This document shows, piece by piece, positions 17,989 through 51,521 of a stretch of DNA of 64,000 bases. The position numbers were made by a program, and so were the translations under genes. This stretch comes from Podarcis vaucheri (Eukaryota). The first letter of the stretch is position 1, and each line of letters opens with the position of its first letter. The DNA lies in assembly GCA_965113315.1 (NCBI GenBank), contig OZ220367.1, one strand, 5' to 3'. The notes beneath the pieces are model-generated. The model worked only from the letters and a program-made list of their open reading frames with translations, was not told the origin of the DNA and ran no database searches.

Positions 17989-18183
17989 CTCACATATGTC
18001 CTTCAGGTGCTTGATGTAATCTCTTTCCGTGCTTAGGATTTCATTGATAACATTGGTTCTCATTTGGTCCTTAGTTGTTTGCCCCACTCCATAACGGTGG
18101 GCAGCATTTCTTGAGTCGTCCTCCCTGCCATCTTCTAACTTCAAAGGATAGTCTTCCATCGGTTCATCCTGGTTCACTCGGAG
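17989..18183 (-). CDS. ARHGEF4: ARHGEF4 SH3-DH linker / DH start exon: LRVNQDEP...[28 protein letters not shown]
   Basis: 195 nt, phase 0/0, donor GAG|GTAACA; DH CR1 motif EILSTERDY. Confidence 0.96.
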
Positions 18184-18794: not shown

Positions 18795-18974
18795 CCGTAC
18801 GAAGCTGGCTGGGAACCAGCCCTCACTGTCCATTATTCTGCCCCACCACCATTCTTTGTTAGTTGCATCCATTACTTCAATGACATCACCAGCCTTGAAG
18901 CCCAGCTCTTGGTCATCCATGGTGACATGATCCCAGAGTGCTTCGGCGTAGACAACACCACCATCACTGATGAG
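18795..18974 (-). CDS. ARHGEF4: ARHGEF4 SH3 exon: [60 protein letters not shown]
   Basis: 180 nt, phase 0/0, ctttctctgttccag acceptor, CGG|GTAAGA donor; SH3 motifs [16 protein letters not shown]. Confidence 0.97.
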
Positions 18975-34050: not shown

Positions 34051-35686
34051 AATCTCAATAATTACCTCCATCCATATGAGATGTCCAGGCTCTGAGGTCA
34101 AGTGTAGAGGTCCTGTTCTGTTCCCTCACCTCCCATTTGCTAACATAAAGGGGGCAGCTGGGACTTTGATGTGTCCTGGAAAAAGAAGCTTGCCTGTCTC
34201 CTTAGCGAGCAATGAAGGCTTTTCTTTCCCAGCAGGCTTTTAGGAATGTGTTTTTCTGAAATTGCTTTTCACCTGCTATGGATCTTAGAAATGTATGCTT
34301 TTTTATCAGGCGGATACATTGCTAATGTTTTATTGTCTTAGATGTATTTCTTTGCCTAATTATTTAGAAAGACAAGGTACACCTTTTGGAAATGAAAGAT
34401 AAATAGAACAACCTCCTAAAAAGGATGGGATACTGGCAAAAAAGATCAGAGGGAGACAAATTTGATACCTTATCTGAGTAGCAAGCAACACTTTATACAA
34501 ATATATATATATGAACCTCACTAGAGAGTCATTACAGTCAAATATGATTTTGGAGTGCCTGTTAGAGAAGCAAGGAATGTTACTTACTTTCCTTTCGATG
34601 TCATAATGTACAATGTTATTACTGTTTATCACATTGCTGTCACAGAATTACTAATAAGATCTATTCCTGCCTGCTTTTCAAGGCTAGGCTCTAAGTTTTA
34701 GTGAGACACACACACTTTCTTAAGGCAAGGAAAGGTGATCATTATCGATTCCTCCCACCTCAAACTCTAGATCTTGAAGGTGTGCAAGTCCAGCAATTTA
34801 TTATCCAAAAGGTACACAAGACAGGTGAGTGCATGGACAGAAATTGTGTGGGAGCACCACACATGCTACTTCGAATTCCCTCATGGAAGAAAGGCAAGAT
34901 ATAAATGTAGTCATAAGTAGCTCACTTCTGACAATGTTCATGCTGCTACATACCTCTGTTGAAGTGTAAAGTCCCAGTAATTAGTAATTTGGTTATTGCC
35001 TACTGAGGGTTAATTGACACACATTTCCATCCATGTTTATTTGAATACAGTTTGGCTTTATTTTGAGGAACAGTTATAACAGTTCTTTTTATAAGAAGCC
35101 AGAATTTATTCGATTTTTAAATGTCAAGCACCAACATTAGAAATTTACAATATGCCATGAATAAATGCATGAGGAATCTTATTGACAAAACAGCCTCAGA
35201 ACTCTTTTTCTTATAGCTCTCCCAGGATACAGTGTATAGAAAGCATTGGGTATTTGTCAGGGCTGATTTGCATGGTCAAAAATTGGGCTCTCCCCAGCAC
35301 CAATGTTTTTCATTGTACGCTCGCCAGCCATCTGGGGTTGTAATGAATTCTTAGAGGCGCATCCTGATCCAGTTATGAAGGTCTGTGTATGTAAGCAGAG
35401 GCTCTTTTTACATACTACCTGCTGGATCAGGAACAATGGAGGTTAACTGGATTCACATCTGCATTCTACATTTGTGTGTGGACAACTAATGCCAGAACTA
35501 GTGGCACAACTTGAATTGATTTGGGGATGAATGACACACATTCAATCAAGGCAAAGAGCTTGATTATAAAATAAATAAATATGAAAATAAATAAATATGA
35601 ATTGGCCCTCAGTATTTTATTTCTGGCTATGGCAAAACAAAAGTTCTGTTTGTTTTTTTATTAACACTGCAGACTGCTGCAGCATA

Positions 35687-36040
35687 CAGTGGTGCCTCGC
35701 AAGACGAAATTAATTCGTTCCGCAAGTTTTTTCATCTAGCGAATTTTTCGTCTTGCGAAGCACAGTGTCGGAAAAGTTTTGGAAAAGCTTCAAAAATCAC
35801 CAAAAACCTCAAAAAAGGCTACCACACCGCGTTCTATGAGTTGCTCCTCGAAGTCAAGTCACAACTGTATTAACGGTGTTAAGAAAAAGGAAACAAACTT
35901 GCAAAAAACGCAAGACGTTTTCATCTTGCGAAGCAAGCCCATAGGGAAATTCATTTTGAGAAGCAGCTCAAAAACCGCAAAACCCTTTCGTCTAGCGAGT
36001 TTTTCGTCTTGTGAGGCATTCGTCTTGCGGGGCACCACTG
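35687..36040. mobile_element. Tc1/mariner-pogo (Tigger-like) MITE family B, 354 bp
   Basis: TIRs CAGTGGTGCCTCGCAAGACGAA / TTCGTCTTGCGGGGCACCACTG, TA on both sides, internal repeats of a CGTCTTGCGA-like motif. Confidence 0.9.
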
Positions 36041-37316
36041 TACAACATTTATTTATATTTAAAATGTATACACTGCCTTTCCAAATATGTTGCTCAAAGC
36101 AGTAAGCAAAGAAGAATGGAAATTGTAGCAGAAGCTGGAGCTAAGAAAACCAAGCTGAGGCCTTTCATTTTTTTTATTTCGTCATGAAAGCAAACTCCCC
36201 CCGCCCCACACAACTACTCTCTAAAGTTATACAATGTCCATATAGGAAATTAGGCTTTTACCCAGACAAGGAAAACAGATTTTTGGTTGGGTTTATTTTT
36301 CCCAACTTTACATTAAACTAAGAAAACAATACATTTAAGAAATGCTACATGCTCTTGTGTTGTTTGGTTTGCCTTAAGTGCAGAATGGGATTGCCTGTTC
36401 ACATGAATAGAGTCTATGCAAAAACCATTCTGAGAACTAACTAGCTGTCAGGCTTACATCTCTGAGTGTATCCCAGGCTTGCTTCCATGTGCCAAAAATC
36501 ACAAAGTATTTTCAAAATGAGCTTTCTTTAAAAAAGAAGGTGTCTAGCACAACAACAGAGTGACTCATGTAACTAGTAGGAATGGAGAACACTGCACAGA
36601 ACACGACACACACATAACTTAGAAAGAATGGCTCTTGATAATGAATTCAGTTCTTTTAGGGTGGAATTAGCATTAAACTCCAAGGAGAGCAGTTTCATTA
36701 TCAAATATTGGACCGCGTGAGATGAATACACCTGAAAGTTCTTGCTTTGCAACTTCAATGCCAGTAAGGGGTTTGTTGCGTTTCTGGAGGGCTGGATTTC
36801 TACTCAAGGCTTGGGAAGCAAGCCACACTTGTGAATTTTCCATTGGACAATGTCACAGGATTTATTTGAACTTCAGTGTTTCTTGAAGAATCAATTGCCT
36901 TTGACACTACCAGCCTGACTGCTTTTCCCTTGCCTCCCCTCACTCCCACTTTCAATCCATCAGTGTCTGAATTTCCAGATGGAACAAGACTGGTAAATAA
37001 AAATATATCATTTCCAAGTTGATTATCGAGTTAGCTTTTCTCCATTTTAAGAGGCCTGGATCAGCTCTCCCACAACATCTCGATATTTCAGCTAGAAACA
37101 GAAGGGACAAAGGCAGTTTCTTGTCCAAAGATCCCACCAACATATTTTTTTTTACACGTTTCTCTACACATAAGCACTCTGAAGTCATTAAGAAAATGGG
37201 AGAAAAGCCAGTGAAGACATAAATTCCACAGGGCGGTCGCTGAACATAAACATAGATTCCTGATGTACTCTAATGATCCACCATTAATCAATTACAGCTA
37301 ATTGGGCATTACTCAC

Positions 37317-38450
37317 AACCCAGCGCACATATTCTCGAAGCCCCGATGGTCTCAATTAGAGAGCAATACTTGCTCTAATGGATTGGGCTTTTCTCACAGC
37401 AGCTGCAGACATGTAGCCGTTTTCTTGTATAATAGTTCATCAAATAAGTGCCACTTAACAAGCCAATGGAGTGCATAGATAGAGTCTGCTGAGCACTTCC
37501 AAGTCCATTCAGCTAAGAGGCGGAGTGTGTCTGTATGCAGCATCATTGTGATTACGGCCAGAGGTGGCCGGCAGCGACTCAGTTAACCAAGCTGGCCGCA
37601 TTACTTCTTCCCTTTCCAAGATGTGATGCTGCTCTGGCTGGCAAGGCACAGGCAACGGGAACAGGGAGAGCCAGGGATACAGTGCGCCGATGAATAATCA
37701 CAGGAGACATGCTCAGACACATGGCTACGACAGAAGACAAGGCGAACCTGAATCAGACAATGACGAGCTGACCTGCTGGTCTGCAGCCCAGTCCTGGAAG
37801 CCCCCAGCCACTCTTTGCCACGCAACACAATCCTGCTTCTCAGTAAACTGCCAGGAGAAACATGAGCACAACATTAATGATGATGAGAAAGAGCAGAATG
37901 ACAAAGACCACCACGCGCTGCGTTTCCGGGTTCATGTTGCACCGGAGGAATGTGTGAAGCGCACTCCATTTGTGCCTGCTCTGGTTCGACCCCTTCGCCA
38001 TGTCTGGGATTGGCCTCAGCCCCTCGAAAAACAGCGTCTTAGCAGGTTAGCAGCAGCGCTGTTTCCGGAAGAAAGCATGAGGGGAGGCAGGGGAGGGGGC
38101 TACAAACAATAGAGGCATTTCTGCAGCTGTCAGGAAGCAAAACCTGATCAATTCGGTACAGCCATTATTATGATCGGCTTCCGAGCATAATACACGCACA
38201 TGCAAGTACATCCTCTTCCCCCAAGCAATCCTCCTTATCTGGTTTTTGTTTTTTGTTTTATCTCAGCAAAGCACCAGCTTCCCACTTCATCTTCAGCAAA
38301 GTAACTGCCTCCATAAGCATTAGCTGAGTGAAGCTCCTATAGGAAGAGGGCTGCGTGTGCTGGAGCCCAGAGATCTCAGCGGCGATACTGGCTTTCTAAA
38401 GAGCTAGTCAGCTATTTGCTAAGCGCTGTAGCTAGGATACATGCAAGCCC
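37317..38450 (-). promoter_or_regulatory. Putative internal promoter / alternative first exon of ARHGEF4 carrying SMIM39
   Basis: Locally CpG-enriched and repeat-free. Contains the SMIM39 ORF and short ORFs, and ends at a GTT|GTGAGT donor (37316). The transcription start is not determinable from sequence. Confidence 0.5.
37840..38001 (-). CDS. SMIM39: Small integral membrane protein 39-like, 53 aa: MAKGSNQSRHKWSALHTFLRCNMNPETQRVVVFVILLFLIIINVVLMFLLAVY*
   Basis: Strong Kozak gacATGG, basic N-terminus and a ~23-residue hydrophobic C-terminal helix. LRCN..P..QRVVV...INVVL.FLLA matches the recalled human SMIM39, which also lies inside ARHGEF4. Below the ORF-track size cut-off. Confidence 0.85.
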   Translation of the reverse strand: MAKGSNQSRHKWSALHTFLRCNMNPETQRVVVFVILLFLIIINVVLMFLLAVY

Positions 38451-40556
38451 TAGCAACGGGGGAGAGCGGGGAGGGCAGCGAGGAAAATGTGGGTCTTTCA
38501 AGGAGGGTTACAGAAGTGGAGGCAAAAAAACCAAAGGCAGCTGTGTTGGAACCCTCCAAAATGCACAGCTCTGAAGTATCTTTATTAAGATCAGCCAAAA
38601 TGTTGCCAAATAGGGCGAAGCTTTTGAGTTCTTCAGAATTCTTTATCAAGCTAGGCACTGCCCAAGCAGGGGTTGGGGAAGAGGAGGGGAAGGCATGGGT
38701 ACAAAAATCCGGTTAGCTGTTGAAGCCTGAAGGTCTGCATTCAGACTCAGTCTGCAGATGGAGACTTTAACTGAATTAGTCTCTACAAGATATCTAGGAT
38801 TGAAAGATGAAGAGGCAATAGCCCAATTTTGAAAACAATTTTGATGCTGTTAATCAAATGTGGCATTCGTTAAAAAAAATACAGCTATGAGCTGAGTAGG
38901 CAAAAATAAATTAACAAAATTAATAAGATTAATGCAGGTGCTTCTTCAGATATTGCGTAACGGCAATAGCAGTAGACAGAAAAGGAAATACAAATTGTAA
39001 GTGTAGATAACTTAATTCTTCAGCAATGGAAAAAAGGAAAAACTTGGCCAGCCTTGGGTAGTGAAAAAGCAAAGGCAGCCACTTGCATCCAGAAAAAAAG
39101 CCTCCATGATTGTTACAAAATAACAAGCAAGCTTTCCCGGGGTCCAGAACTCTTAATGAGGCTGGAAGCTATACAAAGGAGAGTTGCAGGGGAAGGGAAC
39201 AAAAAGAGAGCAAAAATAGGCTGGTATGTAGTCAAAAGATCTTCGTTTAGACCCAATTTCAAGATGGAATTTGCATATTGTCTCTTTAAATAGACACATC
39301 AGTTTCAGCAAACTATTCTAAAACTGATTTTCAATCATCATGTAAAATATACAAAAACATCTATGTTCTGTATACTCTGAATGAGAAGTTTCCTATGATC
39401 GGAAATAGGAATTGACCTCGTTCAGATCTATTTATTATTATTCTTTAATTAATTAATTTATATACTGCCCTCCATCCAAAGTTCTCAGGTGCTTTCAACA
39501 TTTTTGAAATCTAGAGATTCACTATGATTTTTAGCAAATAATTCACACAGCTACTCAGAAAAATGTGGGAGGACAGATGCACTCTTCCCACAAACACACC
39601 ATGCTAATAGCAACCAGGTCTACTTAATCATCTATCACAAGCATGTATGGCAGGAAGCAAAACCACAGTTTGTGCACGATTTAATTATGCAGATAACCCA
39701 TTGTCTTAAGTTATAATGTTATACACTAACTTGGTAACTTCTGATTCAATGGCAGTGTATATGCTTTAAATACAGTAAATAAAAAGAATAATACTGTAAT
39801 ACAGAAACAGGTGGGGGAGGCAGGTGGACACACAATGGTTCCTTAATCTACACTGGGATGTTTTTCAAATGTTAGTACTTGAGAGACCAGTTCTGTTCCT
39901 GAACAATTTGTCTGGCCTGATTGGCCTCTTCTCTCCCTTGCTAACATAATTTACTTTTTGCCCATAAATCTTTGAAAGTCCTCACCAAAGTTATCTATAT
40001 TTGTGAATTGACACAAAAGAGTGGATTTGGAAGACATAGAGTCAACACAAGCATCCTGTTTGACTTGAGTTCCTGGTCAGATTGTGGGAGAGAATGCATA
40101 TTCCACATTTTATTTTTAAGACTTTGTACGAAAGACTCCAAGCCACTCAGGAGACAGGCGCTGGACCATGGTCTGATTGAGGGAGATTTCCATTTGGTAT
40201 TAAACAAACAGACTACCATATCTGATTTAGGGACTTAGCACAAACATGTAGGCAGGCAGGCAGGCTTAGTATGCAAACTCCCACCACCGCCCCAGCTTAG
40301 ATTGTTATCTCCCTTGTGTCTAGGAAAGGCTAAATGTTATAAAAGCAAAAGTATTACCAGTTTTTCACAGAGAGATCAACATTTCAACAAAAGACTCATG
40401 CAACCATCTTAAGCTGGCAACAGTACATGCTCAGGATGTGAAGTTTGACTTTTTGCACTGTGCAGTCATATTCGTCGAAAACTTTATGGTAGTACGGCAA
40501 ACACAGAATCAATGGCACTGCCACTTTATCAGGAAAGAAAAAAGTCAAACCATACC

Positions 40557-40879
40557 CACTGGCGGAGGAACGGGGAGCAGGGGGGAGCGCACCGCCTCCG
40601 GCACCATCAGGGAGGTGGGCACCATCGCAGCCGCCCCCCGACACACACCTCGCACCCCCCCACTGTGCAGGGCGCCATGCCCCCTCAGGTAGCGCGCCAC
40701 ACCCCTCGGGAGCATGTCACGCCCCCATGGGTGGCATGCCACACCCCCGGGACGCACACCACGGCCCCACAGGTGGCATGCCATGCCCTGGGATGCACGC
40801 CACACCCCACAGGGCACGTGCCAGCCATGCCCCCGCCTGCTCTCTGCTCCCAGTGCCGGAGCATGCAGCTTCGCCACTG
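40557..40879. mobile_element. GC-rich hAT-type MITE with internal degenerate tandem repeats
   Basis: TIRs CACTGGCGGAG / CTTCGCCACTG; 8-bp duplication ACCATACC / AGCATACC; repeated GGTGGCATGCCACACCCC-like units. Confidence 0.8.
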
Positions 40880-41134
40880 AGCATACCAGTTCAACCAACA
40901 TTCCTGTAAGTTCATTAAGCTGTAGCCTTTTTCCATTGTTGTTCTGCACAAAAAGAAAGCATCTATTCAGAATGCAGCTTCGCAGCTGCAGGTTCTTCCC
41001 AAAATGATGTGTCTTTAATGCAACATCTAATTGAAATAAACATGTCAAAATGCCACCTTTCTGCATGTATTCTTTGTACATGGAACCGTGTCTGAAAGGA
41101 GCTTGTATAACACCTGTAGCCTTGTGAAACATTG

Positions 41135-41730
41135 CCCATAAGCCGGAATAGTAGAGTTTTCAGCAGGCATTTAAAGTATGAAACAGATGGTGCCTGCTGC
41201 ATTGCTATTGGCAGAGTATTCCACAGGATTGGGCTCATGATACTAAAGGCTCCATTTCTTGTTGATGTCAGATGAGCCTCGCCAGCTCAGCAGAGAACAA
41301 ACAACACTCTTGTAGAAGATCACAGTGATGAAGCTGGGATATAAGGGTTCAGGCTGTTCCTAAAGTAACCTGCACCAAAGTCGTTCATGATGCTGTAAAT
41401 TAACACAGTGATTAGAAACTGGCTCTGAGGTAGCTGAGCACCCTTTGCAATTGACTAGATAAAGAGTTTTTAACAGTAGTGTCACATGTTGTCAGCTATG
41501 TGTCCCCATCAGCAGTCTGGCTGCCGAATTCTGCACCAGCTGGAGATTCCAAACCAGGCCCAAGGGCAGACTCACATAAAGCGCATTGCAGCAATCCAGA
41601 CTTGAGGTTACCAAAGCAGCACTCAGGACATTCCTGTCCCAGAACGGTCAAATATAGCAAATCAGATAAAGCTGGTAAAAGGCACTCCTACCAAGCTGAA
41701 CTACAAGACATATGGCTAGTGGTCACATTT
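41135..41730 (-). mobile_element. L2 LINE ORF2 3' fragment (degenerate)
   Basis: PILWNTLPIAMQQAPSVSYFKCLLKTLLF is the typical L2 ORF2 C-terminal motif. Confidence 0.75.
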
Positions 41731-44530: not shown

Positions 44531-44717
44531 TTCTGCATCTGGTCACCTGCCACCTCAGCCCCAAGCCCAGGGTGCCAGCAAAATCCAACCAGACCCTTCC
44601 AACCAGAATCTGAAAATCAGTAGGTTGCCAGCACTCCTGACTGTCAGACCTTACTGGACATTCCTGCAGATTCAGCTAGACAAAAGCTAAAAGTCCAATT
44701 GAATTCAGTCAGACTTA

Positions 44718-45080
44718 AAGTAAAGGTAAAGGTACCCCTGCCCGAACGGGCCAGTCTTGACAGACTGTGGGGTTTGTGCGCCCATCTCACATTTATTGGC
44801 CGGGGGCCAGCGCTGTCCGGGGACACTTCCGGGTCACGTGGCCAGCGTGACATCGCTGCTCTGGCGAGCCAGAGCCGCACACGGAACGCCGTTTACCTTC
44901 CCGCTGGTAAGCGGTACCTATTTATCTACTTGCACCCGGGGGTGCTTTCGAACTGCTAGGTGGGCAGGCGCTGGGACCGAACAGCGGGAGCGCACCCCGC
45001 CGCGGAGATTCGAACCGCCGACCTTTCGATCGGCAAGCCCTAGGCGTTGAGGCTTTAGCCCACAGCGCCACCCGCGTCCC
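44718..45080 (-). mobile_element. Full-length Sauria SINE, young copy
   Basis: 5' GGGACGCGGGTGGCGCTGTGG (A box), GGTTCGAATC (B box), (ACCTTT)n tail, intact CpGs, duplication AGTCAGACTTA (44707-44717 and 45082-45092). Confidence 0.93.
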
Positions 45081-51387: not shown

Positions 51388-51521
51388 CTCATTAATAGCA
51401 AGCTGTTCTCCTCCTCCACCTGGGTGGCCATAACGATGGCTAGAACTTCGGAAGTCTTCATACAAGTCTTCTTCACTTCCCACATCATCACTGGTTTTCT
51501 CCAGTGATCCATCAGCAATGA
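51388..51521 (-). CDS. ARHGEF4: ARHGEF4 APC-binding-region exon: IADGSLEKTSDDVGSEEDLYEDFRSSSHRYGHPGGGGEQLAINE
   Basis: 134 nt, phase 1/0, tcttattttag acceptor, GAG|GTACTG donor; GGGGEQLAINE is the Asef APC-binding motif and joins in frame to the SH3 exon. Confidence 0.95.

What the first reader, a model, noticed from the sequence alone, without database searches (positions are those of the whole stretch)
37840..38001. Reptile SMIM39-like microprotein missed by the ORF track
Seen: a 53-aa ORF with a C-terminal TM helix carrying one polar Asn (IIINVVL), ending at the C-terminus. A second in-frame ATG would give a 31-aa form MNPETQRVVV.... The similarity to human SMIM39 is from memory. Inference: retention of LRCN, QRVVV and INVVL from lizard to mammal implies purifying selection. 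A mid-membrane Asn is a known helix-association residue, and size and topology recall regulin-type micropeptides. I know of no established function.
Basis: partly seen in the sequence, partly recalled or inferred. Interest (0 to 1): 0.7.

Follow-up and report, generated by a model that had tools for sequence, protein, structure and literature searches.

The report
Lizard SMIM39, sister of collybistin's SPICA
This is the lizard copy of SMIM39, a known but unstudied 53-residue protein hidden inside the ARHGEF4 gene; it has a related twin, SPICA, at the matching spot in the sister gene ARHGEF9, so the two likely form an old family of small brain membrane proteins that are predicted to work by packing against another membrane helix.

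Summary
The ORF is real (minus strand, 38001-37840, 53 aa) and is the SMIM39 orthologue: 50-54% identical to named mammalian SMIM39, single copy, dN 0.19 vs dS 1.46 against a fish copy, and inside ARHGEF4 between the APC-binding exon and the SH3 exon. SMIM39 is a known gene (PMC6886504 supplement). The 31-aa form is not the conserved product (Met23 is Leu in 22 of 36 homologues). A regulin identity was not supported. The new point: this genome has a paralogue 60 kb upstream of the ARHGEF9 SH3 exon, same strand (profile match 98%, E 9e-14), whose N-terminus matches mouse SPICA, the Arhgef9 uORF protein whose loss alters anxiety and nursing (bioRxiv 325571). Each of the three Asef-family loci sits beside an AMER gene, so SMIM39 and SPICA are probably block-duplication sisters; the SPATA13-like locus has no copy. 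I found no paper linking the two. The likely mechanism, inferred only, is a tail-anchored helix binding a partner through a Gln/Asn face. The scan's own notes held nothing on this.

The parts
37840..38001 (-). SMIM39 coding sequence, 53 aa plus TGA, one exon
37843..37914 (-). C-terminal apolar helix, residues 30-53 (predicted tail anchor); Asn43 codon at 37875-37873
   Evidence: (helix 25-52, pLDDT 88-96 from residue 31)
37918..37947 (-). Conserved juxtamembrane segment Leu19-Gln28 with Cys21 (candidate palmitoylation site, inferred); contains the non-conserved second ATG at 37935
38002..38370 (-). Transcribed leader; 5' edge of RNA coverage at about 38360-38430; nine upstream ATGs whose frames all close before 38001; acceptor-like AG at 38024-38023
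36500..37839 (-). Sequence 3' of the stop, covered unspliced by contigs of two runs; candidate donors at 37772 and 37316 (use not shown)
51388..51521 (-). ARHGEF4 exon upstream of SMIM39; ends with the peptide seen as chain D of PDB 3nmx/3nmz (APC-binding region, recalled); phase-0 donor
18795..18974 (-). ARHGEF4 SH3 exon, the next coding exon downstream of SMIM39; phase-0 acceptor
17989..18183 (-). ARHGEF4 exon at the start of the DH domain (further DH and PH exons down to about 9,300)

Best explanation
This 53-codon ORF is the lizard orthologue of SMIM39, nested in ARHGEF4 and paralogous to SPICA in ARHGEF9, and it likely makes a tail-anchored membrane microprotein that is predicted to act as a protein in its own right by packing one conserved helix face against a partner membrane helix. 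Steps. Shown: ORF, orthology, purifying selection, position between the APC-binding and SH3 exons, RNA coverage starting about 370 nt upstream, paralogue upstream of the ARHGEF9 SH3 exon, AMER gene beside each of the three RhoGEF loci. From papers: human and mouse SMIM39 is brain-enriched, has a peptide hit and sits in an alternative first exon co-transcribed with ARHGEF4; SPICA protein is made in mouse brain and its loss changes behaviour without changing collybistin levels. Inferred: translation from the first ATG; basic N-terminus (5 K/R, 1 D/E in residues 1-29) in the cytosol with Cys21 lipidated; helix 30-53 in the membrane; Gln28, Val32, Leu39, Asn43, Leu46 and Leu50 form the binding face, Asn43 giving an interhelical hydrogen bond; the partner (itself, SPICA or a neuronal membrane protein) is not identified. 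Odds: orthology about 0.97, paralogy with SPICA about 0.95, acts mainly as a protein in trans about 0.7, through that helix face about 0.6.
For: Named SMIM39 proteins recovered by the profile search and aligned at 50-54% identity, E 5e-17 and 2e-18; by eye 23 of 40 residues (14-53) match the human sequence printed in PMC6886504 supplementary file 4. One match in the genome. Lizard vs fish locus L002, 35 codons: 19 third-position vs 2 second-position differences, dN 0.19, dS 1.46. Host gene ARHGEF4; the gar ARHGEF4 model P0027 carries the same peptide between the same two exons. RNA coverage 36500-38370 in two runs, 28 reads at 37172-38431 in a third, none above 38431 in any of 4. Paralogue at G000:C42:28,502,554-733, ARHGEF9 SH3 exon at C42:28,562,469, both +; 23 of 26 residues match, by eye, the SPICA peptide printed in bioRxiv 325571. 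Profile-profile 98.1%, E 8.7e-14 over 38 columns; reciprocal HMMs pick each other out of 160 kb and 64 kb at E 1e-11 and 1e-13 with the next hits at 0.3 and 0.02. Two clades, 21 and 27 rows, split at 100/100. 3 of 3 AMER genes lie 167-263 kb upstream, same strand, of the 3 SH3-exon paralogues. Q28, V32, N43, V44, L46 invariant in 40 of 40 rows of both families; conservation periodicity peaks at 95 degrees, permutation p 0.03. Asn-driven helix association: passage in PMC1190194.
Against: No direct evidence of translation, localisation, topology or any partner in this animal. Periodicity is weak: p 0.12 with best angle 60 for the 20 SMIM39 rows alone, 0.012 for SPICA, and rows were anchored on the Asn motif and are related by descent. 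Single-sequence BLAST between the two lizard paralogues is not significant (16/34, E 0.18); both proteins are mostly hydrophobic, which inflates profile scores, so the paralogy leans on gene position too. Nine upstream ATGs lie in the leader if it is unspliced. No splice joint to ARHGEF4 was seen; the contigs run unspliced through both candidate donors, so co-transcription with ARHGEF4 is unconfirmed here. The two contig runs are only guessed to be RNA, and one of the two raw-read runs gave 2 reads. dN/dS rests on one pair with dS near saturation. SPICA's function rests on one preprint. The mammalian SMIM39 branch is long (1.67), so function may have shifted there.
Confidence: 0.6

Rival explanations
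1. The ORF is mainly a conserved-peptide uORF acting in cis: it sets how much short, APC-independent Asef is translated from the internal ARHGEF4 transcript, and the peptide has no separate job.
For: [quoted passage not shown] Linkage to the SH3 exon is kept in both paralogues. Deleting the whole SPICA region raised reporter translation. Phase-0 donor frames with an ATG exist after the stop in lizard (37772) and fish L002 (392).
Against: ATG-to-TAG loss of SPICA left collybistin levels unchanged yet altered behaviour. A 24-residue apolar helix with invariant polar residues is more than a stalling peptide needs (inference). Lizard contigs are unspliced past 36500. The lizard phase-0 ATG at 37874 depends on an AAT codon that is AAC in the fish.
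Confidence: 0.15
2. It is a regulin-like regulator that docks in the membrane groove of SERCA or another P-type pump.
For: Same size class and predicted layout as phospholamban (amphipathic helix 7-20, kink, C-terminal helix). Phospholamban appears among the nearest named Atlas clusters (0.77).
Against: No Pfam family for the window protein at E<=10; none of 25 aligned members hits a regulin family at E<=1; no regulin chain in the PDB profile search at E<=10; Foldseek 0 matches. The Atlas marks such rows as often chance. The Asn lies 10 residues from the C-terminus, whereas the regulin Asn lies at the cytosolic start of the helix (recalled).
Confidence: 0.12
3. The ORF is a cassette or terminal coding exon of ARHGEF4 that adds a membrane anchor to an Asef isoform.
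For: The gar gene model P0027 reads APC-binding exon, this peptide and the SH3 exon as one frame. In the lizard an AG at 38024-38023 lies 21 nt before the ATG, in frame with the phase-0 upstream donor.
Against: P0027 is a prediction. The stop sits at the same place in nearly all homologues. RNA coverage begins about 370 nt upstream of the ATG, as for a first exon. The acceptor has a rare G at -3. No APC-binding exon was found in the 160 kb searched around ARHGEF9, which still keeps SPICA.
Confidence: 0.06
4. Chance hydrophobic ORF in an intron.
For: One other ORF of 192 in the window is as hydrophobic.
Against: Orthologues from fish to mammals, synonymous excess, same intron, annotated human gene.
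Confidence: 0.01

Closest known systems
SMIM39 (human ENSG00000284479, 56 aa; PMC6886504 supplementary file 4, row 113)
   Same: Single coding exon inside ARHGEF4, same core motifs and C-terminal helix, 50-54% identity to named mammalian proteins.
   Different: Three residues shorter, Met instead of Leu at 23, Phe instead of Ser/Pro at 33; RNA seen here is unspliced downstream, whereas curators describe co-transcription with ARHGEF4. No function is described for SMIM39 in the 4 papers that name it (3 seen as passages, 1 as listing).
SPICA, uORF protein of Arhgef9/collybistin (bioRxiv 10.1101/325571; RefSeq 'LOC128031833 homolog' proteins)
   Same: Homologous Cys...Gln-x-x-x-Val...Asn-Val-x-Leu helix, similar length (59 aa), same strand and position upstream of the SH3 exon of an Asef-family RhoGEF, brain expression reported for both.
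   Different: Separate clade; acidic/neutral rather than basic N-terminus; 47% identity over 34 residues. SPICA has protein-level and knockout data, SMIM39 has none. The preprint's main text has 0 occurrences of ARHGEF4, Asef, paralog or transmembrane.
Regulins (phospholamban PF04272, sarcolipin)
   Same: Size, single C-terminal helix, one intramembrane Asn.
   Different: No sequence, profile or fold match; Asn at another depth (recalled); no pump data.
Bicistronic uORF microproteins such as those of MKKS, MIEF1 and DIABLO (rows)
   Same: Conserved small protein sharing a transcript with a larger ORF.
   Different: Here the arrangement was kept in two duplicated host genes; no sequence relation tested or claimed.

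Membership tests
SMIM39 orthologues | Significant similarity to named SMIM39 proteins over the full length | tested here: met
   groups with them at 100/100 against SPICA-like rows
SMIM39 orthologues | Single coding exon nested in ARHGEF4 on the host strand | tested here: met
   same interval as in gar model P0027
SMIM39 orthologues | Single copy in the genome | tested here: met
   1 match at E<=0.001
SMIM39 orthologues | Alternative first exon spliced to downstream ARHGEF4 exons | tested here: inconclusive
   5' edge of coverage fits a first exon; no joint seen, and the SH3 exon was outside the stretch laid
SMIM39 orthologues | Brain-enriched expression and peptide detection | not testable with these tools
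   Tissue of the runs is not given; human and mouse data only from PMC6886504
SMIM39/SPICA family (proposed here) | Profile-level homology with shared invariant residues | tested here: met
   single-sequence BLAST alone not significant
SMIM39/SPICA family (proposed here) | Same position upstream of the SH3 exon in paralogous RhoGEF genes within an AMER-RhoGEF block | tested here: met
SMIM39/SPICA family (proposed here) | Shared molecular partner or redundancy | not testable with these tools
   no experiment or model available
SPICA orthologues | Located in ARHGEF9 and inside the SPICA clade | tested here: not met
   Window protein is in ARHGEF4 and the other clade; the genome's SPICA is on C42
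Regulins (phospholamban/sarcolipin type) | Match to the family profiles or solved chains | tested here: not met
Regulins (phospholamban/sarcolipin type) | Binds SERCA and shifts its calcium affinity | not testable with these tools
   needs assay
Tail-anchored proteins | One apolar helix at the extreme C-terminus, no N-terminal signal | tested here: met
   apolar run 30-53 with 0-1 residues after it; polar basic N-terminus
Tail-anchored proteins | Cytosolic N-terminus and post-translational insertion | not testable with these tools
   inferred from charge distribution only

The most novel reading that the evidence does not exclude
Before the vertebrate genome duplications one RhoGEF gene already had an internal promoter making a two-protein message: a membrane microprotein followed by an SH3-DH-PH exchange factor without the APC-binding region. 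ARHGEF9 kept only that unit (SPICA plus collybistin), ARHGEF4 kept it beside the long APC-regulated form (SMIM39 plus a collybistin-like short Asef), and SPATA13 lost it. SMIM39 and SPICA are then a two-member family of brain tail-anchored helices with a shared partner and partial redundancy, so SPICA's mild knockout understates the family's role.
Probability: 0.45. Interest if true: 0.7.

Novelty: new member of a known kind. Interest (0 to 1): 0.48.

Why it matters
As flagged, it is an unannotated orthologue of a known gene, which is ordinary. Its value is the link: SMIM39 has no functional study in the library searched, SPICA has an antibody and a knockout mouse but no stated relative or fold. 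Joining them gives both a residue-level hypothesis (Cys21, Gln28, Asn43 face), predicts redundancy testable by a double knockout, and suggests that collybistin descends from an internal bicistronic isoform still present in ARHGEF4. It also means that lesions of ARHGEF4 or ARHGEF9 can remove two proteins at once.

Tried and rejected
31-aa form as main product: rejected. Regulin membership: no match. A lay of reads spanning both this exon and the SH3 exon was not obtained, so the splice joint is open. No listed holder run is on record as RNA. Differences inside the ORF in two close relatives: none listed, but about one would be expected in 162 nt, so uninformative. Two loose-end read consensuses (at 37785 and 38329) match nothing in the window, and the first nothing in the genome; unexplained, possibly library artefacts. 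Contig lengths point to ends near 36,164 and 36,051, close to AATAAA signals, but also to an A-run and a transposon edge, so a stand-alone polyadenylated transcript is not claimed. DNA alignment of the two paralogous exons did not even register the ORFs and was discarded. No third paralogue in 120 kb at the SPATA13-like locus (best E 0.13; its APC-binding-to-SH3 intron is about 310 nt) nor among weaker genome hits; candidates further upstream or more diverged are not excluded. Cluster members P0013, P0014, P0023, P0106 are unrelated long proteins or were not examined, and were left out. In one search the gar slice was one residue out of register in the ungapped column table, and 5 SPICA-like rows are shifted or frameshifted there, so column counts are taken. 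Atlas search of the SPICA copy gave no usable hit. TOXGREEN supplement (1 file), brain microprotein atlas main text and PMC8009153 had nothing on SMIM39. The scan's earlier notes held nothing relevant.

Full report
Observation. Translating 37840-38001 on the minus strand gives a 53-residue ORF from ATG 38001 to TGA 37840. It has a basic N-terminus (5 K/R and 1 D/E in residues 1-29), a 24-residue apolar run from 30 to the C-terminus with Asn43 inside, and a second in-frame ATG at 37935. Hydropathy alone is weak evidence: 2 of 192 ATG-ORFs of 40-80 aa in the window reach its score. The first ATG has G at -3 and +4.

Identity. A single-sequence search returned 8 homologues, 7 unnamed and one uncharacterised carp protein. 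A profile of these against the 50%-clustered library returned 18 proteins at E<=0.001; one cluster has 7 of 7 members named small integral membrane protein 39 (or 39-like) from rodents, a pika and lemurs. BLASTP gives 27/54 and 29/54 identities to two of them. The human sequence printed in supplementary file 4 of PMC6886504 matches at 23 of 40 positions over residues 14-53, counted by eye. The genome has one match. Against fish locus L002, 35 core codons differ at 9, 2 and 19 first, second and third positions, dN 0.19 and dS 1.46 (one pair, dS near saturation). Residue 23 is Leu in 22 and Met in 14 of 36 homologues, and the residues before it are conserved, so the 53-aa form is the conserved one.

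Host gene. The window holds ARHGEF4 on the minus strand: an exon ending at 51388 that matches the Asef peptide of PDB 3nmx/3nmz chain D (that this is the APC-binding region is recalled, APC activation of Asef is from a passage in PMC4594598), the SH3 exon at 18974-18795, and DH and PH exons below. The ORF lies in the 32-kb intron between the first two. The gar ARHGEF4 model P0027 has the peptide between the same exons. PMC6886504 (passages and supplement rows seen; file 1 not searchable, file 8 cut) describes human SMIM39 as a 56-aa single-exon gene in an alternative first exon of ARHGEF4, conserved in vertebrates, brain-enriched, with low-confidence peptide support and no evidence of independent transcription. 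So the flagged gene is known.

Expression here. Of 4 runs laid on 36500-39000, two contig sets from two organisms (RNA is the tool's guess) cover 36500 to 38360 and 38370; one single-cell RNA run gave 28 reads between 37172 and 38431; one bulk run gave 2 reads at the edge; none covers 38432-39000. This fits a transcript starting near 38370. No joint was listed and the contigs cross the candidate donors at 37772 and 37316 unspliced; the SH3 exon was outside the stretch, so splicing to ARHGEF4 is neither shown nor excluded. Nine ATGs precede the ORF in the unspliced leader, so a leader intron, leaky scanning or reinitiation is needed (inference).

The paralogue. The two weakest profile hits, P0039 and P0040, differed systematically. 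Searching the genome with them found a 59-aa ORF at C42:28,502,554-733. The window's SH3 exon has two close paralogues, at C42:28,562,469 (+) and C18:26,798,703 (-). The C42 one matches ARHGEF9 best, and the small ORF lies 60 kb upstream on the same strand. Its first 26 residues match the SPICA peptide printed in bioRxiv 10.1101/325571 at 23 positions, by eye. That preprint (parts 1-3 of 4 read; supplements not seen) reports SPICA as a uORF protein of Arhgef9 detected in mouse brain, whose ATG-to-TAG loss leaves collybistin unchanged but impairs nursing and raises anxiety-like behaviour. In L003 the sequence after the SPICA stop has ATG ACG TTG followed by GT at 1967-1977, which would give the Met-Thr-Leu start recalled for collybistin; this donor scored low in my rough matrix and its use is not shown.

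Strength of the paralogy. Pairwise BLAST is not significant (16/34, E 0.18). Profile-profile comparison of 24 SMIM39 and 6 SPICA rows gives 98.1%, E 8.7e-14, and each family's HMM finds the other gene as the only clear hit in 160 kb and 64 kb (E 1.3e-11 and 1.1e-13; next 0.31 and 0.019). A tree of 48 trimmed rows splits 21 from 27 at 100/100 (few columns, midpoint root). Labelled SMIM39 rows include gar, carp, salmon and mammals; labelled SPICA rows are amphibians and squamates only. All 3 AMER genes of the genome lie upstream, same strand, of the 3 SH3 paralogues at 167, 263 and 198 kb, as expected for a duplicated block; dating it to the vertebrate genome duplications is inference. The C18 gene (taken as SPATA13 by elimination, not tested) has an intron of about 310 nt at this position and no hit in 120 kb. 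No APC-binding-type exon was found in the 160 kb at ARHGEF9, of which about 32 kb lie upstream of SPICA, while the same query finds the C18 exon at E 2e-5.

Mechanism. AlphaFold2 gives a helix at 7-20, a break, and a confident helix at 25-52 (mean pLDDT 76, pTM 0.46); Foldseek found no match. In 20 SMIM39 and 20 SPICA rows Q28, V32, N43, V44 and L46 never vary and L39 and L50 rarely do; apart from V44 these fall within a 60-degree arc. Conservation periodicity peaks at 95 degrees with p 0.03 for both families, 0.012 for SPICA, but 0.12 for SMIM39 alone, and the rows were anchored on the Asn motif. Polar residues such as Asn can drive helix association in membranes (passage in PMC1190194). I therefore favour a tail-anchored protein, possibly palmitoylated at Cys21, that binds another helix through this face and acts in trans, as SPICA appears to. 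The partner is unknown and was not modelled. A cis-acting uORF role, a regulin-like role and a fused ARHGEF4 exon are the rivals.

What is in print. SMIM39 appears in 4 papers of the library (passages read in 3, listing only for PMC12632508), none functional in what I saw. SPICA with ARHGEF9 gives 3 papers (two seen as listings only), ARHGEF9 with uORF 1, LOC128031833 0; searches listed nothing that links the two. The preprint's main text never mentions ARHGEF4, paralogy or a transmembrane segment, but its Table S1 and Figure S2, unseen, could bear on this, and subscription journals and patents are not covered. One snake SPICA protein is labelled small integral membrane protein 39 by NCBI (P0065), so automated annotation has already met the similarity.

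Verdict. Observation confirmed; interpretation partly supported. The gene is a new species member of a known, unstudied family. The SMIM39-SPICA sister relation and the shared gene layout are the contribution, well supported by sequence and position; the mechanism is inferred. Interest 0.48.

Noticed in passing
L003:1465-1644 (G000:C42:28,502,554-28,502,733, +): Lizard SPICA, 59 aa, upstream of ARHGEF9; this exact sequence is not in the 15-billion protein collection. A snake orthologue is labelled SMIM39 by NCBI (P0065).
   Followed up: yes
window 35685-36042: Small element of about 358 bp with 24-nt terminal inverted repeats beginning and ending in TA, like a non-autonomous Tc1/mariner element (class recalled); it lies just 3' of an AATAAA at 36053 downstream of SMIM39.
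   Followed up: partly
window 37785 and 38329: Loose read ends in a single-cell run: 4 reads leave the sequence near 37785-37797 into letters not found in the genome; 5 reads near 38329 carry a short tail that may be a template-switch adaptor (recalled), which would mark 5' ends.
   Followed up: partly
P0027 (gar ARHGEF4 model): The gene model fuses SMIM39 in frame into ARHGEF4, probably an annotation artefact that hides the small gene.
   Followed up: partly
P0011: A close relative's SMIM39 frame reads through the stop to 207 aa and has Trp for Arg20; could be a real stop loss or a contig error.
   Followed up: no
window about 44624-45050: Sequence resembling a Sauria SINE (recognised from memory in the frames).
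   Followed up: no
window 40396-41159: GC-rich stretch with long overlapping open frames on both strands and a repeated unit; probably a tandem repeat or mobile-element remnant.
   Followed up: no
G000:C18:26,996,448; C42:28,299,135; C19:43,214,027: Three AMER genes, each upstream of one Asef-family RhoGEF gene.
   Followed up: yes
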